Virus record (IMG/VR): IMGVR_UViG_2698536552_000015
From: a virus
Taxonomy: Duplodnaviria; Heunggongvirae; Uroviricota; Caudoviricetes
Length of the DNA stretch: 14,019 bases
Direction: 5' to 3' (one strand)
Position 1 is the stretch's first letter, and every line of letters starts with the position of its first letter. The notes under the pieces were generated by a model, which saw only the letters and a list, made by a program, of their open reading frames with translations, was not told the origin of the DNA and ran no database searches. Positions 1,237 through 14,019 of the stretch are shown here, in pieces. A program made the translations under genes and the position numbers.

Positions 1237-1237
1237 A

Positions 1238-1453
1238 TCATGAGTCTTTGATAAACTGATTTATCTTTGGATAGTTATACCAGATAATCCCTCGCTTACT
1301 GTCTGGCTTCCCTAAAGGAGATACTCGTTTGAAGTGGAAGCCTTCCACCCAACAGTTCTGGCGGTATGCTTCAATTTGTCTGGCCCCCAGACCAGTGCGA
1401 AGCATCAGGCCGTATTCAACCATCCACTCTTCATTAAAGATTACTTGTGCCAT
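1238..1453 (-). CDS. xisR: Excisionase-like protein (71 aa)
   Basis: In-frame ATG at 1453 within ORF 1238..1477 gives [71 protein letters not shown], which I recall as YdaQ/XisR. Sits immediately upstream of int (xis-int arrangement). The longer start at 1477 is possible. Confidence 0.85.
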
Positions 1454-1552
1454 CGCATCACCTCTGGCAGGCGCCAATGTTAGACTTAAATTGACGCCCG
1501 ATGTTGATTATTAATAATCAGCTATGAAGTTTTAATTTGAATACAATGCAAT

Positions 1553-1741
1553 TCACGAGGACTGAAGTTTCTCGCAATTAAAATTTATCAGTTTTACTTT
1601 CTGCTCTCTGGAAACGCCTGCTTCTTTTTTACCTGAGAGCATTTTTTCGCATTCTGATTTCGTTAGTTTAGATTTTGAATATCTTGTCCAGTTAGTAGGA
1701 GTGCCACCTTCCTTTTCAATAGTGGCGGTAATTTTATACAT
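1553..1741 (-). CDS. ydaC: Small Rac prophage protein YdaC/RcbA-like (62 aa)
   Basis: ATG at 1741 (MYKITATIEKEGGTPTNWTRYSKSKLTKSECEKMLSGKKEAGVSREQKVKLINFNCEKLQSS) inside ORF 1553..1813. The start overlaps the 3' end of the ralR frame by 8 nt. Confidence 0.7.
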   Translation of the reverse strand: MYKITATIEKEGGTPTNWTRYSKSKLTKSECEKMLSGKKEAGVSREQKVKLINFNCEKLQSS

Positions 1742-1928
1742 GAACACCTCCATTATTATTTCCAGTGGTTCGTTTATTTCATCGTTCGAGTGCTTCTTTT
1801 TCACTTCCACCATAACCGGTTCGGGATTCGCATCCGTTACACTTCGCTCGGTAATATCCTGAAATGGCTTTCACCGTTACTGATGGACAACCACAAAATG
1901 GACATGGTTTAACATTGTCATATCTCAT
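1734..1928 (-). pseudogene. ralR: ralR-like gene (restriction alleviation / type I toxin) with an in-frame TGA at codon 50; 49-aa product if terminated, 64 codons if read through
   Basis: Hand translation of the minus strand from ATG 1926-1928: MRYDNVKPCPFCGCPSVTVKAISGYYRAKCNGCESRTGYGGSEKEALER, then TGA (plus 1779-1781), then in frame NKRTTGNNNGGVHV and TAA at 1734-1736. Absent from the ORF track because it is under 60 aa. The in-frame tail matches the RalR C-terminus as I recall it. Confidence 0.55.
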
Positions 1929-1956
1929 AATTTTTCTCATAAAAATATTTCAAGTT

Positions 1957-1975
1957 GGCGGTGCATTACACCGCC
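1957..1975. other. Perfect 7-bp inverted repeat GGCGGTG-catta-CACCGCC between the recT stop and ralR start
   Basis: Read directly from the sequence. On the minus strand the U-rich tract starts about 9 nt after the stem, so this is not a canonical intrinsic terminator. Confidence 0.3.
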
Positions 1976-1983
1976 AGGCTGAA

Positions 1984-2793
1984 TTATTCCTCTGAATTAT
2001 CGATTACACTGTATTCCCCGGTTAATACAGAGGAATCTGCAGGATCGATTGTCAGTGGTTCCTTTTCATCCATTGATACTGCACGCTGGATCTCAATTGA
2101 TACGGGCAGATATTTGAACAGGCGACGAATAGCCGTTTTCTTTGCCATTTCTTCCCAGTGAGTTACCCACGGCCCGTTATTACCAGCTTTACTCTGGCTG
2201 CGCACCAGCTCAATCTGTTTGCGCGTCATAACTTCAAACTGAGTACCTCCGTCTTTCAGTCTTGCGACAGCATAGACGTGGGTAACAGGGGCATCTTCGT
2301 TTTCTCCTGGGCGGTGTATTAACTTTTCATCAAGGCCAAATTCGAAATTAAACTCGTCACCTTCACGGACAACACGGGCTGACAGGCTGGCGATTTGACC
2401 TGAACGGCGAGCCAGATCAATCATGCCGCGATAGCCAATGATTAGCTGAACGTTTTTTTTACCGCTCTTTTCGTTTTTATTACCAAAAGGCAGTAAATAT
2501 GCATGACCGAGGGCGCTACCGGGCTCAAGTCCGAGCTGTGAACACTGTACGATTGCACTGACAAAACTCATAGTGTCACAGTTTCCTAACGCCGGAACTT
2601 TACGAATTTCTGTGGTGGCGATACGGATCATACGTTCAGCCGTCATATGGCGTGGAAGAGCTGCTGCCAGTTGCTCTTTCATTGATGGCTGGTTAATAAA
2701 ACTAATCACGTCGTTATTTTTAATTGCTGCTGGTGCACGGTTTCCCTGAGTTTTTTGCAGATCGGCTTTTGCGATTGGTGGTTGCTTAGTCAT
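1984..2793 (-). CDS. recT: RecT single-strand annealing recombinase (269 aa)
   Basis: ORF 1984..2850; internal ATG at 2793 gives [41 protein letters not shown]…SVIDNSEE, recognised as RecT. AAGGAA Shine-Dalgarno 7 nt upstream. The start overlaps the recE stop by 8 nt. Confidence 0.95.
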
Positions 2794-5386
2794 TTGCATA
2801 TTCCTTAGCCCAGCGGGGCAGTGATAACGTCTTAATAGCTGGCCATTCATCGGTATTGAGGCAGTCAGCCAGGGTTCGCAGATTGCGGTGATATTCCAGC
2901 TGACCTGCCAGTTTTGCTTCTTCGCCCATCATGAAAATTTCAACCGGATAACGTCCGCATTCAATAGTTGTGCTGGCAACCAGAAAAACGAAAGTTGGCT
3001 GCACTCCAAACTGTGCTTCATAACCGTCACTGTAGAATGCATCCTGAACGTGATAGCGGTAGTCGTAATAAGCGGTTTTGAATCGTTGAATATCCGCCGT
3101 AGTTTTCACGTCCATGATCCAGTGAAATTCAGGGATAATTTTGTCCGGACGGCACCGACACAAAATTGCTGTTTCAGGATCTTCCCAGTAAATTGATGAT
3201 TCAGCGTGTCCGGCGCTTTCAACAAGCCATTGCCCCAGCGGCAAAGCCATAACGCTCTGATACATGAGTTCAATTTTCCGGCCTTCTTCGGCAGTGATAA
3301 CCGTTTTTCCTGTGCTTGCGCATTCCCTCAGAAACGCTTTCTCTTCTTCTTTTCCGGAGTTTGTCCGGCGGTTAAATTCAGGTGCTACGATAAAGCGGTT
3401 ACTGAATTCTTCCGGCTCAAGTACCCGGCAGTGGAAAGCGGTTCCTAAATCGAGCGTTTTTGTCTTTGTGGTGTCCACGGGGGCATTTTTACGCCACAAA
3501 TACAGTGCCGGAGTATCAGCAATGTCATCGAGCTGAGACTTACTGACACCGGGACCCGCGTGGTAATTCTCATTCGAAATTCCGTAATAAATACCTGGCT
3601 CTATGTCTTCTACGATTACGGGATCTGCGACTTCGCCAGTTTCATCACTGCAATCGCGATGCGGATCGCTGCCAGCATTCTCATTGTGCGGATGTTCAGC
3701 GCCTTCCATTTCCTCCGGATCATTTTCCTTAGCTTCAACCTGACTCTCTTCATCGAATGTTTCCTGGTATGTTGCGTCGCCCATCACCGCACCACAGTCA
3801 GGGCAGTTATCCCCGCCAGTCTGGCCGCAGGCATTGCAGGCTATTTCCGGTTCCTGTTGCACTACTGGCTCAGGTTGATTCATATCCGGGCTGGTTTTTT
3901 CCGTTTCTGGCTGGTTCTGGTACACACAATCGCGAGTCTGGATCCCCTTTACCCATTTCGGATCGTTCGGGTCGCTAATTCCGTCAACAAATTCACCACG
4001 TGATGCAGCAAGCAATTTATCGGCATCGACAGGATTTTTTGATGGAATGTTTTTCCGGGCTTCATGGAGTTCTGCCCGCAGTTCCTGATATTTCGCATCA
4101 ACAGAATTTACCTGTGACTGAGCATCCAGCGGCTGCGTGTCCTGATGATGTTCAGTTGCGTCCGGTTCCATTGTTTCAGCCTCTCCCTGTTCAACTGCCG
4201 TTGTTCCAGATGGTTGCGGTTTTTCTTCATCATCCTGTTTTCCTTCTTCTGTTACTCGCTGCGGCATCGGGGCAGAGGAGCGACCGCAGGCAATATCCAC
4301 GATTTCCGGATCAGGGTTGGCATGATCGGTTTCAGTCAGTACTTTGTTCAGATATTCAGTGACGTGCGCGGGGATGACCTCGATCCCAATTGGTGCTTCT
4401 TTTACGGACGCAACCACGATGGCGCGGGAATAATCCAGCCCGCCAGGCATGGTGATGAATTTGTCGCGGAAAACAGAAAAGGGCGGTTTATTTTCAGCGA
4501 TAATTTCCTCAATGCGTTTAGCGTGTGCCGGATGAAGGTTATAGATGTCCAGATCCATTGAACGGGCCAGTACGCCAGTGGCTACGTCCCGCGCCAGTGA
4601 CGTCAGATCGTGTACGAAACCTTCGCCGCGATCGGTGAGGTTTCCGCCGCCAGCATTAGCACCGGAAGCCGTGCGAGTGATGTGTGAAACACGATTACCC
4701 TTCATCCACTCTTTTGTCAGCAGTCCTCGATCGGTGTAGTCAGCGTTCAGGTATGCTTCGAAAAAAGCAGTTATCAGTCCCAGGTTTGAATTACCAGGAT
4801 TAGGGAAAACTTTGTCAGTGTCACGAACCAGTTTGTGGAGTTCGCGAATTTCCAGCGGGTCGAGCAGGCTGGTTTTGTGGGAAACAGCCAGGGCAGTAAC
4901 AGCCGGTAGTTCTTCAGCCCGAGCAATGTGTAATGCCTGGAGTCCGTCGCGTGAAACGTGCGTTACCGGTTTTTCGCTGCCGTGTTGAGCAAGCCAACGA
5001 ATGGGCAGTTCCTGGCCAGAAATTGGGAGTAGCATATTCTCCTCAATCTCAGTCATGTCTTCGCCGTTGACGTTGGTATTGCCTTGATAGTGAGCGTTGT
5101 CTGGTGCTGCTCCCGGTTTTAGTTCCCATGTCATGGAGTCTTTGCTGAGTTGATAGCGTTCACTCCAGGTAAAATCGATCTCACCTTCAGCGGGCAGGTC
5201 ATTAACGACAGGAAAATTCGTGGCAACAGCTTTAAAATAGCTGCTCAGTTTTTTACCTGACTTAACGATCAGGTAGTCCAGAGTGGCACAGGTCGATTCA
5301 AAATCGTTGCTTGCCCACAGGACGACGTCAGGTTCACCGGATGATTTTTTCGCTTTCCGTAACAGGAAGAGTGGTTTTGTGCTCAT
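2786..5386 (-). CDS. recE: Exodeoxyribonuclease VIII RecE (866 aa)
   Basis: ORF track 2786..5386 (-), 866 aa, [33 protein letters not shown]… with an acidic low-complexity middle and a C-terminal nuclease domain. Matches RecE of Rac in length and sequence as recalled. Confidence 0.95.
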
Positions 5387-5459
5387 TGTTTTTTAACCTC
5401 AACTCAGATTAAAATTCGTTTTGTTCAGTGAATGATCTTGCCGGATACACACTGTTCAT

Positions 5460-5480
5460 AGCCTGCGCCATACGCAGGCT
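5460..5480. other. 8-bp perfect inverted repeat AGCCTGCG-ccata-CGCAGGCT in the racC-recE intergenic region
   Basis: Read directly from the sequence. Lies 7 nt downstream of the racC stop on the minus-strand transcript and is followed on the plus strand by ATTTCTTTCA. Candidate RNA stem-loop or weak terminator. Confidence 0.3.
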
Positions 5481-5487
5481 ATTTCTT

Positions 5488-5763
5488 TCAGATTTCACCT
5501 TTTAATTTCATTGCAATTAGAGTTGCCAGAAATTCGGCTTTTTTTTCTGCGGGCAGATTCTTTCCGATATGCACCAGGCACATTTTTTTGACACCTTCAT
5601 CAAGTGTTTTTACGTTGCCTGATGGACCATCGATATCAACCACAGTGAATGGGGTTTCTTTATTTTCTGTTTTAATTACGTAGCCAATGCGCTTTCCTTC
5701 CAGATTCACCTCGTGAACAATGTCATCGGTAGTTACAACAGTGGCTTCATAATTGGTAATCAT
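5488..5763 (-). CDS. racC: Rac prophage protein RacC (91 aa)
   Basis: Internal ATG at 5763 in ORF 5488..5811 gives MITNYEATVVTTDDIVHEVNLEGKRIGYVIKTENKETPF…KLKGEI. AAGGAGAAA Shine-Dalgarno upstream. Confidence 0.85.
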   Translation of the reverse strand: MITNYEATVVTTDDIVHEVNLEGKRIGYVIKTENKETPFTVVDIDGPSGNVKTLDEGVKKMCLVHIGKNLPAEKKAEFLATLIAMKLKGEI

Positions 5764-5837
5764 GTTTTTCTCCTTAATTAAGGTTGAGCGAATACCTGCC
5801 ATTTCTGGCATAAATTCAGTTTCGAATAGTCAATTAA

Positions 5838-6008
5838 TTAAAGTTCATGTGCCATCTGGTCTTTTTCGGCACAAGCTTCACTGCAATATTTTCTCGGTTC
5901 GTCTTTTGATAAAATCCCGTGCATGAAGTGAAGCATTCTTTCAATAGCTTTGCTTTCTTCAACGTCTTTTTTGCAAAGGTGGTAAGCACATTTTATTTTC
6001 TTAGTCAT
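5838..6008 (-). CDS. ydaE: Small Cys-rich protein YdaE (56 aa)
   Basis: Hand-translated minus-strand [59 protein letters not shown]. Not in the ORF track (under 60 aa). Its ATG overlaps the kilR stop as ATGA. Confidence 0.75.
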   Translation of the reverse strand: MTKKIKCAYHLCKKDVEESKAIERMLHFMHGILSKDEPRKYCSEACAEKDQMAHEL

Positions 6009-6229
6009 CACCATGACTCCGCCTTTACAGGTAAACCATCACGACCGAGGAAGACTTTAATCATGCGGTCAGTAATGCATGTTTTTGTGGTCAGGTTACG
6101 AATATATAGTTTTCGCTTTTTAATATTGTTTGCCGAGGCAATATATGTCCGGCCTTCATGAAGAACATAATCGCCAGGAGTCACACACTGACGTGGTATT
6201 TCATCAGTTCCGAAGTGATGTGCAATCAT
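6008..6229 (-). CDS. kilR: Killing protein KilR, FtsZ-targeting cell-division inhibitor (73 aa)
   Basis: ATG at 6229 in ORF 6008..6241 gives [77 protein letters not shown] Shine-Dalgarno 6 nt upstream. Confidence 0.85.
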
Positions 6230-6410
6230 AATTATCTCCATTTTTACAAATGAACTTTGTTGATGCGGTGCCTGGTGCCTCCAGGTGACTGCAACCAGTT
6301 AACAATTACAGTCGGCTTTCCCACCCAAACCAATAAGGACTAACATGACTTTTAACTGTGCCACGTGCGCTTAGCCGCATTCACCGCATCACAAAATTCA
6401 CTTTAAAAAG

Positions 6411-6452
6411 GGCGGACATCAGCCGAACTTCAAGAAAAAAACTGATGCCGCC
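6411..6452. promoter_or_regulatory. Imperfect inverted repeat GGCGGACATCAG-N19-CTGATGCCGCC in the kilR/sieB divergent intergenic region
   Basis: Read directly: arms at 6411-6422 and 6442-6452 are complementary apart from a 1-nt bulge. Candidate protein-binding site or RNA structure near the presumed early-left promoter. Confidence 0.3.
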
Positions 6453-6670
6453 AGGACTACACACAGCAATGTCGTTATTTACAACCGGAGGCGCACTCCC
6501 ACCATTTAAATTTAACAGACAAGACCGACTCTTTATGGATATCGGAAATGCGCCTTCGTGTTGTGCCCGGTTTTATTTCACCACCTCCGGGCTTCGGTGG
6601 TCTCGGCTATACCCCTACAGCGAGAGCTTGTGTTAACATTTCAATACCCTTACAGTTGAGAGTTATTGAT

Positions 6671-7159
6671 ATGTTGGATGTATTTACTCCATTGTTGAAA
6701 CTTTTTGCTAACGAGCCACTCGAAATACTTATGTATACGATTATCATTTTTGGTCTCACTCTCTGGCTGATACCGAAAGAGTTTACTGTCGCATTCAATG
6801 CTTATACTGAAATACCTTGGCTCTTTCAGATTATCGTTTTTGCCTTTTCTTTCGTGGTCGCCATTTCCTTCTCAAGATTGCGAGCACATATTCAAAAGCA
6901 TTATTCATTACTACCAGAGCAACGAGTATTGCTTCGTTTATCTGAGAAAGAAATCGCTGTATTTAAAGATTTCCTTAAAACAGGAAATCTTATTATCACT
7001 TCTCCTTGCCGTAACCCGGTTATGAAAAAATTAGAACGGAAGGGCATCATTCAACATCAGAGTGATAGCGCAAACTGTTCTTATTATCTCGTCACCGAAA
7101 AATACTCCCATTTTATGAAGTTATTCTGGAACAGCAGGAGTAGACGTTTTAATCGTTAG
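6671..7159 (+). CDS. sieB: Superinfection exclusion protein SieB (162 aa), membrane protein
   Basis: ATG at 6671 in ORF 6548..7159 gives MLDVFTPLLKLFANEPLEILMYTIIIFGLTLWLIPKEF… with hydrophobic N-terminal segments. Matches SieB as recalled. Confidence 0.85.
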   Translation: MLDVFTPLLKLFANEPLEILMYTIIIFGLTLWLIPKEFTVAFNAYTEIPWLFQIIVFAFSFVVAISFSRLRAHIQKHYSLLPEQRVLLRLSEKEIAVFKDFLKTGNLIITSPCRNPVMKKLERKGIIQHQSDSANCSYYLVTEKYSHFMKLFWNSRSRRFNR

Positions 7160-7311
7160 CTTACTGTGTGCTTCTCCAACCATCGGCGCGCACCAGTTTC
7201 GGTTTTAAATGTTTTGCTTTTGGTATACGTCATGGCAGTGAACGTTCCATCCTGGTTGGGGAACACGCCGCACACCAGGGATTCGTTGTTGCCGAGGTCG
7301 ATTTTTTGCAT
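7156..7311 (-). CDS. ydaF: Small protein YdaF-like (51 aa)
   Basis: Hand-translated minus-strand ORF MQKIDLGNNESLVCGVFPNQDGTFTAMTYTKSKTFKTETGARRWLEKHTVS (ATG 7309-7311, TAA 7156-7158). Not in the ORF track. Its 3' end overlaps the sieB stop convergently by 4 nt. Assignment to ydaF rests on length and position. Confidence 0.55.
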   Translation of the reverse strand: MQKIDLGNNESLVCGVFPNQDGTFTAMTYTKSKTFKTETGARRWLEKHTVS

Positions 7312-7321
7312 TTTGCGAATC

Positions 7322-7456
7322 TCACATCTTGTTGCTGTGTATAGCGACTTCTGCCTGCCAGAGATCCCAGTCGTTGCTGCGTAAAGCCTGCACAGCCTGG
7401 TTGTAAGTGATACCGCAACAATCCATCAAATACTGAACTACTTCGTAATGCACCAT
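7322..7456 (-). CDS. ydaG: Small protein YdaG-like (44 aa)
   Basis: Internal ATG at 7456 in ORF 7322..7504 gives MVHYEVVQYLMDCCGITYNQAVQALRSNDWDLWQAEVAIHSNKM. GGGGAGAG Shine-Dalgarno 6 nt upstream. Confidence 0.6.
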   Translation of the reverse strand: MVHYEVVQYLMDCCGITYNQAVQALRSNDWDLWQAEVAIHSNKM

Positions 7457-7624
7457 CTTATCTCTCCCCTTAACGCCGGGTGGCGGAACTGAAACCTGCT
7501 GCACTGCAAAATCTGAACCCTGCCGTCATGTTCATACGCCTCGGGCTGGCTACTTAACCCCTGACCACTGCCTGGTAACTCGAAGTATTGCCCTGCGTTC
7601 TGTGGGGCGGGGTGGGTTGGTAGG

Positions 7625-7680
7625 TATATAATGTACTTTGTGTTCATTGATGTAAAGTACTATAAGTACATTTTGTGTGT
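7625..7680. promoter_or_regulatory. Cluster of GTAC-core repeats with promoter-like hexamers downstream of the racR stop; candidate operator/promoter region (OL-like)
   Basis: Plus-strand TATATAAT at 7625-7632; ATGTACT at 7631-7637; AAGTACT at 7655-7661; AGTACAT at 7665-7671; TTTGTGT follows two of the copies. On the minus strand, TTTACA-N17/19-CATTAT/TTATAT could drive ydaG-ydaF. Confidence 0.3.
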
Positions 7681-7746
7681 AAAAAAATGAGATGGGATAA
7701 AGTGAAGCACAAACCCGGAGGGGGACGCTACCGGATTTATGCTGGT

Positions 7747-8184
7747 TTAAGAGGCTTTTTGTTTTTTCTTTCGTGCTAGCTCTTCGTAAATTGCATTGTA
7801 CTTCTGTTTTTTCTCCTCAAGAGTTTTTAAAAGTTCATCTGTCTCACTGTCAGGGAGCTCGTCCAGAAGGTCAATGATGATTTTTTGTCTTGGATTTAAC
7901 TCCTGATAGAAACGTACCTGTCCACTTTCTTCTGTATCCTCTCCCAAAAGATAGGTTGGTGTTGTTCCAATGAGTGTTGCTAATTCCCTTAATTTCTCTC
8001 GGCGAGGAATTGTTTCGCCATTAAACCATTTGCTAACCGCTTTTGGTGTTAATTTCATTCGACGGGCAATTTCTGCCTGCCTTCCATGTTGTTCATAACC
8101 AGCGTTTTCACAGGCTAGCGCAAGCCTACTGGCGAACTCTTTACGCGCTTTATCTTCATGAACCATAAGTTCAATGATATTCAC
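7747..8184 (-). CDS. racR: Prophage repressor RacR (XRE/cI-type helix-turn-helix), 145 aa from GTG 8184 or 139 aa from ATG 8166
   Basis: ORF 7747..8184: MNIIELMVHEDKARKEFASRLALACENAGYEQHGRQAEIARRMKLTPKAVSKWFNGETIPRREKLRELATLIG… (HTH), acidic/basic C-terminus. No clear Shine-Dalgarno, consistent with a short-leader or leaderless repressor mRNA. Confidence 0.85.
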   Translation of the reverse strand: MNIIELMVHEDKARKEFASRLALACENAGYEQHGRQAEIARRMKLTPKAVSKWFNGETIPRREKLRELATLIGTTPTYLLGEDTEESGQVRFYQELNPRQKIIIDLLDELPDSETDELLKTLEEKKQKYNAIYEELARKKKQKAS

Positions 8185-8186
8185 TC

Positions 8187-8221
8187 TTGAATGTACTGTC
8201 AGTTCTGTTATAGCATGTACT
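8187..8221 (+). promoter_or_regulatory. Candidate ydaS promoter (TTGAAT-N16-TATAGC) flanked by two direct ATGTACT repeats; putative RacR operator region (OR-like)
   Basis: -35 TTGAAT at 8187-8192, -10 TATAGC at 8209-8214, ATGTACT at 8191-8197 and 8215-8221. Lies between divergent racR and ydaS. Confidence 0.4.
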
Positions 8222-8245
8222 CAAAGTTCACATTGTGAGGGTGAT

Positions 8246-8500
8246 ATGAACCAGAAAACACTTGAAGATGTAATCAAAACTGTTCGCGTTTCTGTTGTGG
8301 CCGACGTTTGTGGTGTCAGCCAAAGAGCAATCTACAAATGGATGGATAACGGAAAATTGCCTCGCACAGAATATACCGGCGAAACAAATTACGCTGAAAA
8401 AATCGCTCATGCATCAAACGGATTATTTTCTGCTGATGTAATTTTAACTATTGGCAGAAATAAAACTACTACGAAAAAGCTGATGGGAGTTGATTCATGA
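8246..8500 (+). CDS. ydaS: Cro-like helix-turn-helix protein YdaS (84 aa)
   Basis: ATG at 8246 preceded by GAGG gives MNQKTLEDVIKTVRVSVVADVCGVSQRAIYKWMDNGKLPRTEY… with an HTH motif. Divergent from racR. Its stop overlaps the ydaT start as ATGA. Confidence 0.8.
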   Translation: MNQKTLEDVIKTVRVSVVADVCGVSQRAIYKWMDNGKLPRTEYTGETNYAEKIAHASNGLFSADVILTIGRNKTTTKKLMGVDS

Positions 8501-8919
8501 AAATCAAGCATGAGCACATCGAGTCAGTGTTGTTAGCCCTGGCAGCCGAAAAAGGGCAGGCATGGGTAGCCAATGCCATTACTGAAGAATATCTGCGCCA
8601 GGGGGGCGGCGAATTGCCCCTGGTACCAGGCAAGGACTGGAATAATCAGCAGAATATCTATCACCGTTGGTTGAAAGGTGAAACGAAAACGCAAAGAGAA
8701 AAAATTCAGAAGCTGATCCCAGCAATTCTGGCAATCCTTCCGCGCGAGCTGCGTCACCGACTCTGCATCNNNNNNNNNNNNNNNNNNNNNNNNNNNNNNN
8801 NNNNNNNNNNNNNNNNNNNNNNNNNNNNNNNNNNNNNNNNNNNNNNNNNNNNNNNNNNNNNNNNNNNNNNNNNNNNNNNNNNNNNNNNNNNNNNNNNNNN
8901 NNNNNNNNNNNNNNNNNNN
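8497..8919 (+). CDS. ydaT: YdaT-like protein; N-terminal 91 codons visible (8497..8769), 3' end hidden in an N run (end inferred from a recalled length of about 140 aa)
   Basis: MKIKHEHIESVLLALAAEKGQAWVANAITEEYLRQGGGELPLVPGKDWNNQQNIYHRWLKGETKTQREKIQKLIPAILAILPRELRHRLCI then N run. GGGAG Shine-Dalgarno upstream. Confidence 0.7.
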
Positions 8920-9030
8920 NNNNNNNNNNNNNNNNNNNNNNNNNNNNNNNNNNNNNNNNNNNNNNNNNNNNNNNNNNNNNNNNNNNNNNNNNNNNNNNNN
9001 NNNNNNNNNNNNNNNNNNNNNNNNNNNNNN
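8770..9030. other. N-masked run (261 nt), no sequence information
   Basis: Run of n in the input; hides the ydaT 3' end and ydaU 5' end. Confidence 0.99.
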
Positions 9031-9814
9031 TACCTGGCTGACACCATGCATTTGTCAGCAGAGGAGCATGGTGCGTATTTGTTGCTGATGTTCAATTACT
9101 GGCAAACAGGAAAGCCAATACCTAAAAACAGGCTGGCAAAAATTGCCCGTCTGACTAACGAGCGATGGGCTGATGTTGAACCATCCTTGCAGGAGTTTTT
9201 TTGCGATAACGGCGAGGAATGGGTGCATCTTCGGATTGAGGAAGATCTGGCATCANNNNNNNNNNNNNNNNNNNNNNNNNNNNNNNNNNNNNNNNNNNNN
9301 NNNNNNNNNNNNNNNNNNNNNNNNNNNNNNNNNNNNNNNNNNNNNNNNNNNNNNNNNNNNNNNNNNNNNNNNNNNNNNNNNNNNNNNNNNNNNNNNNNNN
9401 NNNNNNNNNNNNNNNNNNNNNNNNNNNNNNNNNNNNNNNNNNNNNNNNNNNNNNNNNNNNNNNNNNNNNNNNNNNNNNNNNNNNNNNNNNNNNNNNNNNN
9501 NNNNNAAAAAGTTTGACCCTCTGGATATTGCTTTGCCGAACTGGATTTCTGTCTCGCTTTGGCGTGAGTGGGTTGAATTTCGCCAGGCATTGCGAAAACC
9601 GATTCGAACGGAGCAGGGCGCTAACGGGGCGATACGGGAGCTGGAAAAATTCCGCCAGCAGGGTTTTTCACCTGAGCAGGTGATTCGACACAGCATCGCC
9701 AATGAATACCAGGGCTTGTTCGCGCCGAAAGGTGTTCGACCTGAGACGTTACTCCGACAGGTTAACACCGTCTCGTTACCGGATAGTGCGATCCCGCCAG
9801 GCTTCAGGGGGTAA
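8957..9814 (+). CDS. ydaU: DUF1376-type replication-associated protein YdaU-like; start inferred inside an N run, interrupted by a second N run
   Basis: Visible segments: 9031-9255 YLADTMHLSAEEHGAYLLLMFNYWQTGKPIPKNRLAKIARLTNERWADVEPSLQEFFCDNGEEWVHLRIEEDLAS (DUF1376-like motif), and 9506-9814 KKFDPLDIALPNWISVSLWREWVEFRQALRKPIRTEQGANGAIRELEKFRQQGFSPEQVIRHSIANEYQGLF…PPGFRG*. The two segments are in different frames (+1 across the 250-nt N run). Confidence 0.65.
9256..9505. other. N-masked run (250 nt)
   Basis: Run of n in the input, inside ydaU. Confidence 0.99.
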
Positions 9815-9820
9815 CTGACC

Positions 9821-11022
9821 ATGAAAAATATTGCGACAGGCGACGTTCTTGAACGTATCCGCAGACTGGCCCCGTCACATGTAACCGCGCCATTCAAGAC
9901 GGTAGCGGAGTGGCGCGAGTGGCAACTTTCCGAAGGCCAGAAACGTTGTGAGGAGATCAACCGTCAGAATCGTCAGTTGCGGGTGGAAAAAATTCTGAAT
10001 CGCTCTGGCATCCAGCCATTGCACCGCAAATGCTCGTTTTCGAATTACCAGGTGCAGAACGAAGCGCAGCGATACGCGTTGAGTCAGGCGAAATCCATCG
10101 CTGATGAACTGATGACCGGGTGTACAAATTTTGCGTTCAGCGGAAAACCTGGTACCGGGAAGAACCACTTAGCGGCAGCTATCGGGAATCGCCTGCTGAA
10201 AGACGGTCAGACAGTGATTGTGGTTACCGTGGCTGATGTTATGAGTGNNNNNNNNNNNNNNNNNNNNNNNNNNNNNNNNNNNNNNNNNNNNNNNNNNNNN
10301 NNNNNNNNNNNNNNNNNNNNNNNNNNNNNNNNNNNNNNNNNNNNNNNNNNNNNNNNNNNNNNNNNNNNNNNNNNNNNNNNNNNNNNNNNNNNNNNNNNNN
10401 NNNNNNNNNNNNNNNNNNNNNNNNNNNNNNNNNNNNNNNNNNNNNNNNNNNNNNNNNNNNNNNNNNNNNNNNNNNNNNNNNNNNNNNNNNNNNNNNNNNN
10501 NGAACGACGGCCAGCGATACGCGTTAAGCCAGGCGAAATCCATCGCCGATGAACNNNNNNNNNNNNNNNNNNNNNNNNNNNNNNNNNNNNNNNNNNNNNN
10601 NNNNNNNNNNNNNNNNNNNNNNNNNNNNNNNNNNNNNNNNNNNNNNNNNNNNNNNNNNNNNNNNNNNNNNNNNNNNNNNNNNNNNNNNNNNNNNNNNNNN
10701 NNNNNNNNNNNNNNNNNNNNNNNNNNNNNNNNNNNNNNNNNNNNNNNNNNNNNNNNNNNNNNNNNNNNNNNNNNNNNNNNNNNNNNNNNNNNNNNNNNNN
10801 NNNNNNNNNNNNNNNNNNNNGGTGGTGCTGCACCAGATTGTTGATCGCCGGACAGCGTCGATGCGCAGCGTGGGGATGCTGACAAACCTGAACTATGAGG
10901 TGATGAAAACATTGCTCGGCGAGCGGGTGATGGATCGCATGGTCATGAACGGCGGGCGCTGGGTGAATTTTAACTGGGAGAGCTGGCGTCCGAATGTTAG
11001 CCATTCGAGGGTTGTTAAGTAG
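9821..11022 (+). CDS. ydaV: DnaC-like replication/helicase-loader protein YdaV region with an AAA+ Walker A motif; about 450 nt longer than expected and containing a diverged second copy of an internal segment (one enlarged gene, or a 5' fragment plus a second full copy)
   Basis: N-terminal 142 codons visible (9821-10246): MKNIATGDVLERIRRLAPSHVTAPFKTVAEW…FSGKPGTGKNHLAAAIGNRLLKDGQTVIVVTVADVMS. C-terminal segment 10822-11022: VVLHQIVDRRTASMRSVGMLTNLNYEVMKTLLGERVMDRMVMNGGRWVNFNWESWRPNVSHSRVVK*. The island 10502-10554 repeats residues around 79-96. Frames differ between segments (2, 3, 1). Confidence 0.7.
10248..10501. other. N-masked run (254 nt)
   Basis: Run of n in the input, inside the ydaV region. 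Confidence 0.99.
10555..10820. other. N-masked run (266 nt)
   Basis: Run of n in the input, inside the ydaV region. Confidence 0.99.
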
Positions 11023-11036
11023 TTTCAGGAGGATTT

Positions 11037-11459
11037 ATGGCGAAACCTTTTACTCCCGAACAGCGGGAAGAACTGAAGACGCGAATTGTGGAACTCGTGC
11101 ATCAGGACGGTCGGGTCACGATTCGGCAGTTGTCAGATGAAACAGGTATCAGTCGTGCGTCTGTCGGTCGCTTATGCATAGAACTGGTCGCAAGTGGTGA
11201 TGTATATAATTCTGGCTACGGCTTATTCCCGTCTGAACAGGCTCGCAAGGACTGGCAAAGCGCCCGCAAAAAACTCTCGAGAGTAAAGGTGAGGAAACCG
11301 GTTGTTGTTGATCCGGACCTTATCTGGTCATTACCTGACGGAGAAATACGCCGCTACGACAGGCGCCTGAATATAATCTGTCGCGAGTGCCGGAAGAGCG
11401 AAGCTATGCAGCGTGTACTGGCTTTCTATCAGGGTAATTTTCAGGAGGCGATACTGTGA
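11037..11459 (+). CDS. Hypothetical prophage protein (140 aa) with a predicted N-terminal winged helix-turn-helix
   Basis: ORF track 11037..11459; AGGAGG Shine-Dalgarno 4 nt upstream. The segment VTIRQLSDETGISRASVGRLCIELVASGDV looks like an HTH; a single CxxC (CRECRK) lies in the C-terminal half. Family not recognised with confidence. Confidence 0.6.
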   Translation: MAKPFTPEQREELKTRIVELVHQDGRVTIRQLSDETGISRASVGRLCIELVASGDVYNSGYGLFPSEQARKDWQSARKKLSRVKVRKPVVVDPDLIWSLPDGEIRRYDRRLNIICRECRKSEAMQRVLAFYQGNFQEAIL

Positions 11460-11516
11460 ATGAAATTAGCTATCAGGCTTCAATTACCGCTGGCATTCGC
11501 ATCAAAGGAGAGGAGC

Positions 11517-11873
11517 ATGGAAATAAAACCAGAAGATGAGTTAAGCAATATCGTTTTATTTCCGGTAAAAGAGGATGACCCTCGTAATCAGGTTAATTTT
11601 CTTTATGAGCCATCGGAAAGACCATATTGCCATCACGCCTCTGTACGGGTTGACGAAAAAGAGCGTCAGGTCCGCTGTAAAATCTGCGGTGCGGTTGTGG
11701 AGCCGTTTGACTGGATGCTCTCTGTGGCAAAAAGAGAAACCAGACTGGCAGATGATGTAAGGCTATTGCGCCAGGAGGAACAGGAAAGGCGGAGAAATAT
11801 AGAAAAGCTGATACAGATTGAGCGTAACGCGAAAGCGCGGATACGCAGGGCGACAAAATCCAGAACTGAATAA
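11517..11873 (+). CDS. Hypothetical small protein (118 aa) with a C-x15-CxxC zinc-ribbon-like motif and a basic coiled-coil tail; alternative start at 11460 (137 aa)
   Basis: ORF 11460..11873; internal ATG at 11517 has a strong AAGGAG Shine-Dalgarno with a 6-nt spacer. Motif YCHHASVRVDEKERQVRCKICG; C-terminus RLLRQEEQERRRNIEKLIQIERNAKARIRRATKSRTE. Confidence 0.55.
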   Translation: MEIKPEDELSNIVLFPVKEDDPRNQVNFLYEPSERPYCHHASVRVDEKERQVRCKICGAVVEPFDWMLSVAKRETRLADDVRLLRQEEQERRRNIEKLIQIERNAKARIRRATKSRTE

Positions 11874-12020
11874 TTAAATTTAGCACTGTTAAAAATTTAA
11901 TCCTTAACCGGAGGGATTTCTGCACCCTCAAATCATCAGGAGACCACCCGAAAGGGCGGGGAGCAGTCACACATCTGTTTCCGATAGCCCCGTTCTAATG
12001 CTACACTCTTTGATATTTTT

Positions 12021-12707
12021 ATGACCCCAATAAACATATTTATGACAGTTGCTGATTTCAAACGGCCCAAATTGGAGCTCCCAAACGGGGCAAACAAACT
12101 ACTACTGCACTCTTGCTGTGCTCCATGTTCCGGTGAGGTGATGGAGGCGCTTCAGGCCTCGGGAATCGACTACACCATCTTTTTCTACAACCCGAACATT
12201 CATCCTCAGAAAGAGTATTTAATTCGTAAGGATGAGAATATTCGCTTTGCTGAACAACACGGCGTGCCGTTTATTGATGCTGATTACGACACAGACAACT
12301 GGTTTGAACGAGCCAAAGGAATGGAATGGGAGCCCGAACGAGGGATCCGTTGCACCATGTGTTTTGACATGCGTTTTGAGCGGACAGCGCTGTACGCCGC
12401 TGAAAATGGTTTCAGTGTGATCAGCAGTTCACTGGGCATTTCACGCTGGAAAAATATGCAGCAGGTTAACGACTGTGGGCGGCGAGCCGTCGCGCATTAT
12501 CCGGGCATGGTGTACTGGGATTATAACTGGCGCAAGCAGGGCGGCTCGTCCCGTATGATTGAAATCAGCAAGCGCGAAAAATTCTATCAGCAGGAATATT
12601 GTGGCTGTGTGTATTCTCTGCGCGATACCAATCTACACCGCAAATCTCAGGGACGCCCTCTTATCAAAATTGGTCAACTCCACTACGGTAAAGAAGAGAA
12701 GGAGTGA
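12021..12707 (+). CDS. queH: QueH-like epoxyqueuosine reductase (DUF208 family), 228 aa
   Basis: ORF track 12021..12707. Motifs as I recall for QueH/DUF208: [23 protein letters not shown], and C-terminal YCGCVYSL. No obvious Shine-Dalgarno; the true start may be the ATG at 12042. Confidence 0.65.
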
Positions 12708-12728
12708 TTTTATGGGGCACCTTTCTGA

Positions 12729-12758
12729 TTGATTTCATATTGGCGAGGTAAGTAGAAT
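12729..12758 (+). promoter_or_regulatory. Candidate sigma70 promoter of the hok/mok mRNA (TTGATT-N18-TAGAAT)
   Basis: -35 at 12729-12734, -10 at 12753-12758. The predicted start site (about 12762-12765) coincides with the 5' element that is complementary to the mRNA 3' end. Confidence 0.4.
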
Positions 12759-12819
12759 GACTGCGGGTGCTTGAGGCTATCTGCTTCAGGCATGAACACC
12801 AAAAGGCAGATAGAGAAAA

Positions 12820-12886
12820 GCCCCAGTTAACATTACGCGTCCGGCAAGACGCTTAACATTAATCTGAGGCCAATTTCATGCTTTGC
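12820..12886 (-). ncRNA. Candidate Sok-like antisense RNA overlapping the mok translation start (coordinates approximate)
   Basis: Minus-strand promoter-like hexamers TTGCCT (complement of 12916-12921), 17-nt spacer, TAACCT (complement of 12893-12898). Position relative to mok/hok matches the known hok/sok organisation. The 3' end is not defined. Confidence 0.25.
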
Positions 12887-13090
12887 ACATGTAGGTTAGC
12901 CTCTTACATGCCGAAAGGCAAGGAGAAGCAGGCTATGAAGCAGCAAAAGGCGATGTTAATCGCCCTGATCGTCATCTGTTTAACCGTCATAGTGACGGCA
13001 CTGGTAACGAGGAAAGACCTCTGTGAGGTACGAATCCGAACCGGCCAGACGGAGGTCGCTGTCTTCGTAGACTACGAATCCAGGAAGTAA
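12878..13090 (+). CDS. Mok-like reading frame (70 aa): in-frame N-terminal extension of hok, as in mokC/hokC
   Basis: ATG at 12878 in the same frame as hok (MLCTCRLASYMPKGKEKQA + Hok), the same arrangement as the chromosomal mokC/hokC pair as recalled. Confidence 0.5.
   Translation: MLCTCRLASYMPKGKEKQAMKQQKAMLIALIVICLTVIVTALVTRKDLCEVRIRTGQTEVAVFVDYESRK
12935..13090 (+). CDS. Hok/Gef-family type I toxin (51 aa), HokC/HokD-like membrane peptide
   Basis: MKQQKAMLIALIVICLTVIVTALVTRKDLCEVRIRTGQTEVAVFVDYESRK carries the family signature LVTRKDLCEV-IRTGQTEVAVF. AAGGAGAAG Shine-Dalgarno upstream. Confidence 0.9.
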   Translation: MKQQKAMLIALIVICLTVIVTALVTRKDLCEVRIRTGQTEVAVFVDYESRK

Positions 13091-13098
13091 GAGTGACC

Positions 13099-13126
13099 GG
13101 GCGGGGAGCTGATCCCATCCCCGCCC
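13099..13126 (+). other. Perfect 9-bp GC-rich stem-loop (GGGCGGGGA-N10-TCCCCGCCC) 9 nt after the hok stop
   Basis: Read directly from the sequence; part of the structured hok mRNA 3' region. Confidence 0.5.
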
Positions 13127-13166
13127 ACCTCTGATGTGTCAGGCATCCTCAACGCACCCGCACTTA

Positions 13167-13216
13167 ACCCGCCCATCGCTGTGATCTCTCAGCGTTTCGG
13201 CGGGTTTTTTGTTGTT
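13167..13216 (+). terminator. Rho-independent terminator of the hok transcript
   Basis: Outer stem ACCCGCC/GGCGGGT (13167-13173, 13199-13205) with inner stem CGCTG/CAGCG, followed by TTTTTTGTTGTTT. Confidence 0.55.
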
Positions 13217-13230
13217 TATTTCCGGTGAAT

Positions 13231-13258
13231 TTGATTCGCGCACCTTCGCAGATAGAAT
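13231..13258 (+). promoter_or_regulatory. Candidate sigma70 promoter for the downstream small-gene operon (TTGATT-N16-TAGAAT)
   Basis: -35 at 13231-13236, -10 at 13253-13258; same hexamers as the candidate hok promoter. Confidence 0.35.
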
Positions 13259-13339
13259 CGACTCACTTAAGTAGCGCGCAGGGAGAAGAGGGATGGACCC
13301 CGAACAGGGGAGAGCTATTTATCTGGAAGGATTCTGAAG

Positions 13340-13627
13340 ATGAAAATCGAAGAATTGCGTGAAATTTTTAGTGAAAATGGCCTCTATGCTGTGCGCGTTG
13401 AGAATGGAGCGATTGTCAGCCATTGCCGCATTAGATGTTTGCAATCTCAACAAAGGAAGAGCGGTGCTGTGTTATTTTATTTTTGTAATGGACTTCTGAC
13501 GGACGGTTTTATTTTGCGTGAGGACGAATTTGTCACATCATTACGGGTTTTGAAAGAGATTGGTTTTAAGGCTGGTTTTCTGCTTTTGCTGAAGAATAAA
13601 CTCATCTACAATCTTGAGCAGGATTGA
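13340..13627 (+). CDS. Hypothetical protein (95 aa)
   Basis: ORF track 13340..13627; GGAAGG 9 nt upstream of the ATG; stop overlaps the next ORF. No family recognised. Confidence 0.45.
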   Translation: MKIEELREIFSENGLYAVRVENGAIVSHCRIRCLQSQQRKSGAVLFYFCNGLLTDGFILREDEFVTSLRVLKEIGFKAGFLLLLKNKLIYNLEQD

Positions 13628-13665
13628 ACTCCTGCTGTGTAACACCGTGCCACCGGAGAAAGCCG

Positions 13666-14019
13666 ATGGCACATATACAACTGGTCAAACAAACCTCTTC
13701 CGGATTACTTCTCCCGGCGACGCCGGAGAGTTGCGATTTTCTGCATCAAATCAAAATAGGTGAGTGGATACACGCAGACTTTAAGCGTGTGTGTAACTAC
13801 GCATTCCACAAGCGTTTTTTCAAACTCCTGCAACTGGGTTTCGATTACTGGACTCCGGTCGGTGGGGCGATCACGCCTCGCGAACGAAAACTGGTGTCCG
13901 GTTTCGTTGATTACCTGTGTGAATCAGTAGGCCGGGAACATACGCCAGCTCTGAGCGAAGCCGCAGAGCAATTGAGGTGTACTGGCAATAGCGGACACTA
14001 CCATTTGTTCTTTTTTTAA
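13666..14019 (+). CDS. Conserved lambdoid nin-region-like hypothetical protein (117 aa from ATG 13666); stop codon is the last three bases of the window
   Basis: ORF 13624..14019 starts at a TTG; the ATG at 13666 has a GGAGAAAG Shine-Dalgarno and gives MAHIQLVKQTSSGLLLPATPESCDFLHQIKIGEWIHADFKRV…. Resembles prophage proteins I associate with a DUF family of nin regions, but I cannot name the family reliably. Confidence 0.55.
   Translation: MAHIQLVKQTSSGLLLPATPESCDFLHQIKIGEWIHADFKRVCNYAFHKRFFKLLQLGFDYWTPVGGAITPRERKLVSGFVDYLCESVGREHTPALSEAAEQLRCTGNSGHYHLFFF

What the first reader, a model, noticed from the sequence alone, without database searches (positions are those of the whole stretch)
10057..10554. 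Diverged second copy of an internal ydaV segment 445 nt downstream of the first
Seen in sequence: 10502-10554 aligns to 10057-10109 with 47 of 53 identities, encoding NDGQRYALSQAKSIADE versus NEAQRYALSQAKSIADE. Four of the six differences are third-position changes and three codons differ synonymously. The ydaV region (9821-11022) is also about 450 nt longer than a single copy of about 248 aa would need. So the locus holds either an internally duplicated, enlarged DnaC-like gene (about 399 aa if in frame) or a 5' fragment followed by a second full copy whose start would fall near 10269. The divergence pattern points to two homologous alleles (recombination between related prophages) rather than a recent tandem duplication, or to an assembly chimera.
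Basis: seen in the sequence. Interest (0 to 1): 0.6.

Follow-up and report, generated by a model that had tools for sequence, protein, structure and literature searches.

The report
Two prophage ydaV alleles joined across gaps
The "second copy" of ydaV is a 53-base island between two scaffold gaps in a draft Shigella sonnei assembly. It belongs to the helicase-loader gene of a different resident prophage, so the apparent duplication is most likely an assembly artefact and has little biological interest.

Summary
The repeat is real as text. Window 10502-10554 matches 10057-10109 at 47 of 53 bases, far beyond chance.

I found the public source. The window is the end of scaffold CWUF01000056.1 (GCA_001257395.1). 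That record carries the same four N runs, so they are assembly gaps and not masks.

Three of the window's four N runs can be measured against gap-free relatives, and their lengths are off by +9 to +16 nt (a sibling's gap is off by -7). Reading frames and the "+450 nt / 399 aa" arithmetic are therefore unreliable.

- The first copy (gene nt 1-427) is identical to the Rac-prophage ydaV allele of S. sonnei.
- The island (nt 237-289), the 3' end (nt 546-747) and everything downstream are 100% identical to the ydaV and right arm of a second S. sonnei prophage. This includes a Shigella-type IS600 junction.
- In all 38 fetched reference loci that carry ydaV, and in every match listed from 5,426 complete E. 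coli genomes, ydaV is a single gene of about 747 nt.
- In sibling assemblies the right arm is a stand-alone contig.
- Only 53 nt are demonstrably present twice, and gaps flank them on both sides.

Best reading (about 0.65): a scaffold-level false tandem duplication that juxtaposes two paralogous prophage genes. A real private rearrangement, with a 5' fragment followed by an intact second allele, remains possible (about 0.25). An in-frame enlarged gene has no support.

The parts
1..10247 (.). Left arm: Rac-type prophage (intR, xis, recT, recE, racC, kilR, sieB, repressor, cro-like, ydaT, ydaU, 5' part of ydaV). It is interrupted by gaps at 8770-9030 and 9256-9505.
   Evidence: There is 1 mismatch (at 7659) and no indel over 9,736 visible nt against L029, CXNZ01000003.1. 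L029's chromosomal DbpA and DgcM are the exact Shigella sonnei proteins.
9821..10247 (+). ydaV allele A' (Rac type), gene nt 1-427, which is codons 1-142. It contains the Walker A motif GKPGTGKN at about 10139-10162. The piece ends at a scaffold gap.
   Evidence: It is 0 mismatches from the ydaV of L029. It differs from allele B at 28 positions. NF009043 profile positions 1-142 are matched, and Pfam IstB_IS21 is hit.
10057..10109 (+). First copy of the 53-nt repeat, gene nt 237-289, allele A'.
10248..10501 (.). Scaffold gap of 254 N. The length is an estimate.
   Evidence: The same N run is present in the public record L040, CWUF01000056.1. Other gaps of this assembly series are off by -7 to +16 nt.
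10502..10554 (+). Island, the second copy of the repeat: gene nt 237-289 of ydaV allele B. Gaps flank it on both sides.
   Evidence: It matches L002 and L004-L008 ydaV at 53/53, and allele A (L001 type) at 48/53.
10555..10820 (.). Scaffold gap of 266 N. The homologous stretch of allele B is 256 nt.
10821..11022 (+). 3' end of ydaV allele B, gene nt 546-747 including the TAG stop.
   Evidence: It has 0 mismatches to allele B and 20 mismatches to allele A. It is part of a 3,199-nt stretch that is 100% identical to L004-L007.
10821..13972 (.). Right arm: second S. sonnei lambdoid prophage (ydaV-B 3' end, DUF977, a 118-aa ORF, QueH, Hok, Rem, truncated DUF1367).
   Evidence: It is 100.000% identical to L004-L007. 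The exact DUF977 and Rem proteins are named Shigella sonnei by their sources.
13973..14019 (.). First 47 nt of an IS600 copy inserted in the DUF1367 gene. The source scaffold ends 21 nt further on.
8770..9030 (.). Scaffold gap of 261 N. The true stretch in L029 is 252 nt (ydaT 3' end plus ydaU 5' end).
9256..9505 (.). Scaffold gap of 250 N. The true stretch in L029 is 234 nt, inside ydaU.

Best explanation
The locus is not an enlarged or internally duplicated gene. The window is the last 14 kb of a short-read scaffold of a Shigella sonnei draft genome.

S. sonnei carries at least two lambdoid prophages. Each has its own 747-nt ydaV, a DnaC-like helicase-loader gene. The two alleles are about 93% identical and share exact runs of 62, 80 and 142 nt.

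The assembler could not resolve this paralogous replication module. The scaffolder then strung together, across four N gaps of estimated length, three kinds of pieces:
- contigs of the Rac prophage, up to ydaV nt 427;
- a 53-nt fragment of the other prophage's ydaV, nt 237-289;
- the other prophage's right-arm contig, from ydaV nt 546 onward.

The result looks like a diverged tandem duplication with a gap between the copies. That is the classic signature of a false duplication.

Shown: the identity of each piece, the origin of the Ns, the unreliability of their lengths, and the single-copy state in all relatives examined. Inferred: that the join itself is false in this isolate.
For: 1. Source. 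L040 (GCA_001257395.1, CWUF01000056.1, a 25,463-nt scaffold) is identical to window 861-14019, including N runs of 261, 250, 254 and 266. Gene calls in that record break at each N run.
2. N lengths are estimates. They read 261, 250 and 266 where gap-free relatives have 252, 234 and 256 nt, and a sibling's 250 N hides 257 nt. The same sequence is served unmasked in other loci.
3. Left arm. It has 1 mismatch in 9.7 kb to S. sonnei L029, where ydaV-A' is an intact 747-nt gene followed by DUF1627.
4. Right arm and island. The island matches allele B at 53/53. The right arm is 100% identical over 3,199 nt to the four genomes L004-L007, including an IS600 junction that is absent from all 5,426 complete E. 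coli genomes. In those four genomes ydaV-B is a single copy, with no second ydaV piece in the 3.2 kb upstream.
5. Sibling assemblies. L041 and L042 (plus 3 similar places) have the right arm as a stand-alone contig that starts inside ydaV-B at nt 558. Of 7 contigs with this break, only the source is joined to Rac.
6. No second example. No listed match in the 5,426 complete E. coli genomes spans more than a single-copy-sized stretch. All 38 fetched reference loci that carry ydaV have one copy of about 747 nt. Four gapped-pattern scans for the duplicated layout found nothing in the viral and metagenome collections.
7. The gaps cluster in the only 2 kb of the window that has paralogues in other Shigella prophages. 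Several gap edges lie next to exact shared runs or a module boundary.
8. Literature. A gap between the two copies, and a small contig contained in a neighbouring one, are described hallmarks of false duplications (PMC2864568; PMC9516828). The high-throughput Velvet, SSPACE and GapFiller pipeline that produced 299 public S. sonnei assemblies warns of false joins and of gaps with an unknown number of Ns (PMC5320598).
Against: I could not reconstruct exactly how a scaffolder would arrive at a 254-N gap between ydaV-A' nt 427 and ydaV-B nt 237. An in-register misjoin predicts a gap of about 118 nt between nt 427 and nt 546, and an overlapping small contig would normally get a minimal gap.

The three other gaps in this scaffold are accurate to about 16 nt. 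If gap 3 is equally accurate, about 240 nt lie between the pieces. That is almost exactly the length of ydaV-B nt 1-236, as a real "5' fragment plus full copy" would require.

The reads were not available. I did not show that the same assembly also contains separate contigs with ydaV-A' nt 428-747 plus DUF1627, or with the 5' end of ydaV-B. That the assembly came from the Velvet/SSPACE/GapFiller pipeline is inferred from the accession series, not verified.
Confidence: 0.65

Rival explanations
1. Real private rearrangement. In this isolate an illegitimate (out-of-register) recombination between the two resident prophages left a 5' remnant of ydaV-A' of about 142-148 codons, with Walker A but no Walker B. 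A complete ydaV-B and the B-type right arm follow directly. The gaps merely hide the junction and parts of the second gene.
For: The gap arithmetic fits. 254 N, minus the observed error range of +16 to -7, leaves about 238-261 nt. ydaV-B nt 1-236 would fill that with only a few nt to spare. The island-to-3'-end spacing (266 N against 256 nt) matches the true B gene. Scaffolders need several read pairs to make a join (PMC5320598). Deletions and fusions with an end point inside ydaV are common in public data (L036; FORC_081).
Against: A junction plus ydaV-B nt 1-282 would be unique, difference-rich sequence: 26 of the A'/B differences lie in nt 1-282. An assembler should have assembled it, yet exactly that stretch is a gap.

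The right-arm contig breaks inside the 142-nt run shared with allele A', as in sibling assemblies. This implies that an A'-type 3' end is still present in the genome.

No fusion or junction protein was found among the best 120 of 502 homologues of the fragment. No other genome shows the layout. Gap-free S. sonnei references for each locus keep the two loci apart.
Confidence: 0.25
2. The join is real but the duplication is false. Homologous, in-register recombination between the two ydaV paralogues, for example a prophage-mediated inversion, produced a normal-length hybrid gene with an A' 5' part and a B 3' part. The 53-nt B island belongs to the reciprocal product and was misplaced into the gap.
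For: The alleles share exact runs of 80 and 142 nt in gene nt 346-625, between the end of the A' piece and the first B-specific base of the 3' piece. The visible non-redundant pieces (nt 1-427 of A', nt 546-747 of B) are what such a hybrid would show.
Against: It predicts about 118 nt between 10247 and 10821, but the scaffold has 573. No hybrid A'/B allele with this breakpoint appeared among the distinct alleles recovered. Nothing positive supports it beyond compatibility.
Confidence: 0.07
3. A single enlarged, internally duplicated DnaC-like gene of about 399 aa, read in frame from 9821 to 11022.
For: Only the total span of 1202 nt supports it.
Against: 1202 is not a multiple of 3. The three visible pieces are in three different frames, although the N lengths are unreliable. 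The copies are different alleles. No homologue longer than 248 aa was found. The NF009043 profile is 248 positions long and is matched end to end by the single-copy protein. ydaV is 744-747 nt in every allele recovered.
Confidence: 0.02

Closest known systems
YdaV of the E. coli Rac prophage: DnaC-like AAA+ helicase loader, NCBIfam NF009043/PRK12377, Pfam IstB_IS21 PF01695
   Same: Both visible copies are pieces of this gene family. The single-copy allele B protein matches the 248-position profile end to end (510 bits, cut-off 389). It also resembles DnaC, although its score of 306 bits is below that model's cut-off of 357. The gene order ydaT, ydaU/O-like, ydaV, DUF977 is the usual one.
   Different: In the window the gene is broken by two gaps and is assembled from two alleles. 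The A' fragment alone scores 280 bits, below the cut-off. Walker B and the rest of the ATPase core are hidden for the B copy. They are either absent or hidden for the A' copy.
False tandem or segmental duplications in draft assemblies: 'duplicated contained contigs' of Kelley & Salzberg 2010 (PMC2864568) and the false gene gains of Ko et al. 2022 (PMC9516828)
   Same: Two diverged versions of one sequence are placed next to each other on one scaffold. A gap lies between the copies. A small contig duplicates part of its neighbour.
   Different: Those papers deal with haplotypes of diploid genomes. Here the two versions are paralogues from two prophages of a haploid bacterium. The read-pair and depth tests used in those papers could not be run.
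Mosaic recombination between co-resident lambdoid prophages
   Same: The scaffold switches from one prophage type to another inside a conserved replication gene. The ydaV alleles recovered are visibly mosaic.
   Different: Genuine mosaics recombine in register and keep the gene at 747 nt. The window shows an offset of about 445 nt that exists only across gaps.

Membership tests
YdaV / PRK12377 DnaC-like helicase loader (NF009043) | End-to-end match to the 248-position profile above the curated cut-off (389 bits) | tested here: inconclusive
   The gap-free allele B protein (L004) scores 510 bits over positions 1-248. The window's A' fragment scores 280 bits over positions 1-142 only. The B copy is mostly hidden by gaps.
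YdaV / PRK12377 DnaC-like helicase loader (NF009043) | AAA+ Walker A motif (GxxGxGK) | tested here: met
   GKPGTGKN is present in the A' fragment (Pfam IstB_IS21 hit). For the B copy the motif lies in the gap 10555-10820.
YdaV / PRK12377 DnaC-like helicase loader (NF009043) | Walker B (DLLVLDEIG) and the C-terminal ATPase core in the same reading frame | not testable with these tools
   In both copies the region falls in N runs. The frame cannot be inferred because the N lengths are estimates.
Genuine tandem or internal gene duplication | Both copies and the junction lie in uninterrupted sequence | tested here: not met
   The second copy is a 53-nt island between gaps of 254 and 266 N, and these gaps are present in the public record.
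Genuine tandem or internal gene duplication | The copies derive from one another, meaning the same allele apart from later mutations | tested here: not met
   Copy 1 is allele A' with 0 mismatches. Copy 2 and the 3' end are allele B with 0 mismatches. The alleles differ at 50 of 747 positions.
Genuine tandem or internal gene duplication | The layout is reproducible in related genomes or assemblies | tested here: not met
   No listed match in 5,426 complete E. coli genomes spans more than a single copy. All 38 fetched reference loci that carry ydaV have one copy. Sibling assemblies keep the right arm as a separate contig. The gapped-pattern scans found nothing.
False duplication created by assembly or scaffolding | An assembly gap lies between the two copies on one scaffold | tested here: met
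   The criterion comes from PMC9516828.
False duplication created by assembly or scaffolding | The extra copy corresponds to a diverged second version of the sequence that exists elsewhere in the genome | tested here: met
   The island and right arm are 100% identical to the second S. sonnei prophage. S. sonnei also carries the Rac locus with an intact ydaV-A'. Co-residence of both loci in this very isolate is inferred, not shown.
False duplication created by assembly or scaffolding | Discordant or absent read pairs across the join, and read depth that does not support two adjacent copies | not testable with these tools
   No reads are available.

The most novel reading that the evidence does not exclude
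The join is real. In this one S. sonnei isolate, an out-of-register recombination between two resident prophages left a 142-148-codon N-terminal fragment of a DnaC-like loader (helicase-binding region plus Walker A, no Walker B) directly upstream of an intact paralogous loader gene. Such a fragment could in principle act as a dominant-negative or decoy for DnaB loading. More likely it is just a pseudogene remnant of prophage decay.
Probability: 0.25. Interest if true: 0.2.

Novelty: not a real feature. Interest (0 to 1): 0.07.

Why it matters
It matters mainly as a caution. Runs of N in public draft genomes are gap estimates, so gene lengths, reading frames and duplications that exist only across them should not be interpreted biologically. 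Paralogous prophage replication modules are a predictable place for false joins in IS-rich, multi-prophage genomes such as Shigella. If the junction were real, it would be one more example of cryptic-prophage decay and mosaicism, and not a new kind of gene or system.

Tried and rejected
1. Chance match. Rejected: the probability is about 6e-18.
2. Ns as masks applied by the tool providers. Rejected: the identical N runs are in the public record, and the same sequence is unmasked in other loci.
3. N lengths as faithful. Rejected: they differ from gap-free relatives by -7 to +16 nt, while the visible sequence has no indel in 9.7 kb.
4. Finding the layout elsewhere. Three BLAST searches of 5,426 E. 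coli genomes, one exact scan of species-representative genomes (which found 3 single-copy loci), and gapped patterns for "A end ... B island" and "A end ... B start" in the viral and metagenome collections all gave nothing.
5. Looking for a junction or fusion protein with the 142-aa fragment. This returned only unrelated truncations and fusions.
6. Looking up the X-containing ORFs 9821-10552 and 10549-11022. They are not on record.
7. Look-ups with the common proteins DUF977, the cro-like protein and RecE did not reach the source. The short internal ORF 10861-11022 did.
8. Assembler forensics. I tried to derive one k-mer size that explains all contig edges. k=69 fits the sibling contig start at nt 558 and the 68 nt of IS600. 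k=63 fits other edges. No single model fitted, so I draw no conclusion from it.
9. I could not check whether the same assembly holds the complementary contigs, because only window proteins may be looked up.

Full report
**Observation.** The window has four N runs: 8770-9030 (261), 9256-9505 (250), 10248-10501 (254) and 10555-10820 (266). Between the last two lies a 53-nt island, 10502-10554. It matches 10057-10109 at 47 of 53 positions, 445 nt upstream. The peptides are NDGQRYALSQAKSIADE and NEAQRYALSQAKSIADE. Five of the six differences are at third codon positions, and three codons are synonymous. A match this good is not chance: about 2e-22 per offset, about 6e-18 over the window. Only these 53 nt are demonstrably present twice. 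Of the 1202 positions in 9821-11022, 520 are N.

**What the pieces are.** The window is a Rac-type prophage (intR, xis, recT, recE, racC, kilR, sieB, repressor, cro-like, ydaT, ydaU, ydaV), followed by DUF977, QueH, Hok, Rem and DUF1367 genes. In every reference, ydaV is a 747-nt gene for a 248-aa DnaC-like AAA+ protein. It matches NCBIfam NF009043 end to end and hits Pfam IstB_IS21.
- Piece 9821-10247 is gene nt 1-427 of a Rac-type allele, which I call A'. It has 0 mismatches to L029 and 28 to the other allele.
- The island is gene nt 237-289 of a second allele, B, at 53/53. It matches the A type at only 48/53.
- Piece 10821-11022 is nt 546-747 of allele B, with 0 mismatches against 20 for allele A.
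- The alleles differ at 50 of 747 positions and have no indel.

This is not a recent tandem duplication.

**Where the two arms come from.** The left arm (1-8769, 9031-9255, 9506-10247) differs by one base (7659) and no indel from L029, contig CXNZ01000003.1.
- L029's neighbouring chromosomal DbpA and DgcM are the exact proteins that the sources name Shigella sonnei or "MULTISPECIES: Shigella".
- L029's chromosomal flank is at best 99.4% identical to any of 5,426 complete E. coli genomes.
- In L029 the Rac ydaV-A' is intact and is followed by DUF1627 and DUF977 genes.

The right arm (10821-14019) is 100.000% identical over 3,199 nt to four genomes, L004-L007: CP023645.1, CP104419.1, CP146292.2 and CP049179.1. 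I take these to be S. sonnei because the sources name their exact YdaV, DUF977 and Rem proteins that way.
- The identity includes the last 47 nt, which are the end of an IS600 copy inserted in the DUF1367 gene.
- That junction occurs in none of 5,426 complete E. coli genomes.
- In those four genomes ydaV-B is a single intact gene. An O-gene remnant and an IS element lie upstream of it, and there is no second ydaV piece in the 3.2 kb upstream.

**The source record and the nature of the Ns.** Looking up the short internal ORF 10861-11022 returned L040. This is NCBI assembly GCA_001257395.1, scaffold CWUF01000056.1 (25,463 nt), positions 12284-25463. It is identical to window 861-14019 and carries the same four N runs.
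- The Ns therefore belong to the public record. They are scaffold gaps, not masks.
- Gene calls in the record stop at each run: YdaT 91 aa, DUF1376 75 aa, IstB-like 142 aa.
- The scaffold ends 21 nt beyond the window, 68 nt into IS600. That is a typical short-read contig end.
- The gap lengths are estimates. 261, 250 and 266 N stand for 252, 234 and 256 nt in gap-free relatives. A 250-N run in a sibling assembly stands for 257 nt.

This explains why the three visible ydaV pieces appear to be in three different frames, and why ydaU also looks frameshifted. Neither effect means anything. The same reasoning removes the basis for the "about 399 aa if in frame" reading.

**Is the juxtaposition real?** These points argue against it:
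- No listed match in 5,426 complete E. coli genomes covers more than a single-copy-sized stretch.
- All 38 fetched reference loci that carry ydaV have exactly one gene of about 747 nt.
- Gapped patterns designed to hit only the duplicated layout found nothing in the viral and metagenome collections.
- No junction or fusion protein appeared among the best 120 of 502 homologues of the fragment, and no hit exceeded 248 aa.
- Sibling assemblies of the same accession series (CXHU01000302.1, CWZX01000253.1 and three more like it) have the right arm as a stand-alone contig that begins inside ydaV-B at nt 558. That position lies within a 142-nt run identical between A' and B. Of seven contigs with this break, only the source is attached to Rac.
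- The four gaps cluster in the only 2 kb of the window with paralogues in other Shigella prophages. One gap edge (9505/9506) sits exactly on the module boundary shared by different O-like genes. Other edges abut exact shared runs.
- A gap between the copies, and a small contig contained in its neighbour, are the published hallmarks of false duplications (PMC2864568; PMC9516828).
- The pipeline paper that reports 299 public S. sonnei assemblies states that SSPACE and GapFiller are greedy and can make false joins, and that gaps hold an unknown number of Ns (PMC5320598). That this assembly came from that pipeline is my inference from the accession series.

These points argue for a real junction:
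- The other gaps of this scaffold are accurate to about 16 nt. If gap 3 is equally accurate, roughly 240 nt lie between A' nt 427 and B nt 237. That is almost exactly ydaV-B nt 1-236.
- I could not derive a simple scaffolding error that yields 254 N. A misjoin in register predicts about 118 nt between the A' piece and the 3' piece.
- Truncations and fusions ending in ydaV are common in public data.

Against a real junction, that junction plus B nt 1-282 would be unique, difference-rich sequence that should have assembled, yet it is the part that is missing. The break of the right arm inside the A'/B shared run also implies that an A'-type 3' end still exists in this genome.

**Verdict.** My estimates are:
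- about 0.65 that the duplication is a scaffold-level artefact juxtaposing two paralogous prophage genes;
- about 0.25 that this isolate really has a 5' remnant of ydaV-A' followed by an intact ydaV-B;
- about 0.07 that the join is real but in register, with the island misplaced;
- about 0.02 for an enlarged in-frame gene.

Reads, PCR or a long-read assembly of the isolate would settle the question. In every case the biology is ordinary: prophage paralogy and decay in an IS-rich genome. The interest is low.

Noticed in passing
window 13973-14019 (L040 13113-13180): The window ends 47 nt into an IS600 copy inserted in the DUF1367 gene, and the source scaffold ends 21 nt later. The junction is shared with four S. 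sonnei genomes (L004-L007). It is absent from S. sonnei 53G (L008) and from all 5,426 complete E. coli genomes, so it is a lineage marker.
   Followed up: yes
window 9505/9506 (L001 1959/1960): The right edge of the second gap falls exactly on the sharp module boundary (AAAAAGTTTGACC...). At that point unrelated N-terminal parts of O-like replication genes (ydaU/DUF1376, and 262-aa and 376-aa 'hypothetical' types) converge on a shared C-terminal module upstream of ydaV.
   Followed up: partly
proteins P0006, P0007, P0020, P0023, P0026, P0038, P0061; L036 about 6178: Many independent public sequences carry ydaV truncated after codons 121-136 and fused to unrelated downstream sequence: a DUF1627 C-terminus, DUF977, a lysozyme gene and the TehB-like region. 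This suggests a recurrent deletion end point in decaying Rac prophages. In Logan contig L036 the window-like allele is deleted from ydaV nt 368 onward.
   Followed up: partly
L037 (E. coli FORC_081) and L038 (E. coli EC2): Two E. coli Rac prophages that differ from the window's left arm by only 2-3 bases have decayed replication genes. In EC2, ydaU is frameshifted and ydaV has an internal stop. FORC_081 has a deletion running from ydaU through ydaV into DUF1627.
   Followed up: no
L042 1834-2083: A sibling S. sonnei assembly has a 250-N gap inside the QueH region of the same prophage, where the complete genome has 257 nt. Gaps of about 250-266 N seem characteristic of this assembly series.
   Followed up: partly
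window 7623-8490: The immunity region (139-aa repressor and 84-aa cro-like gene) differs from that of the K-12-like Rac loci L001 and L013-L015. It is shared with many E. coli and Shigella Rac variants, so there is a mosaic boundary at about 7622/7623.
   Followed up: no
NZ_CP065613.1 and NZ_CP065615.1 (FDAARGOS_944 and FDAARGOS_943): These genomes are labelled E. coli. They carry the B-type prophage at 99.85% identity, 11 to 31 matches to the query that includes the IS600 end, and at least two separate ydaV paralogues in different prophages. They look Shigella-like or EIEC-like.
   Followed up: no
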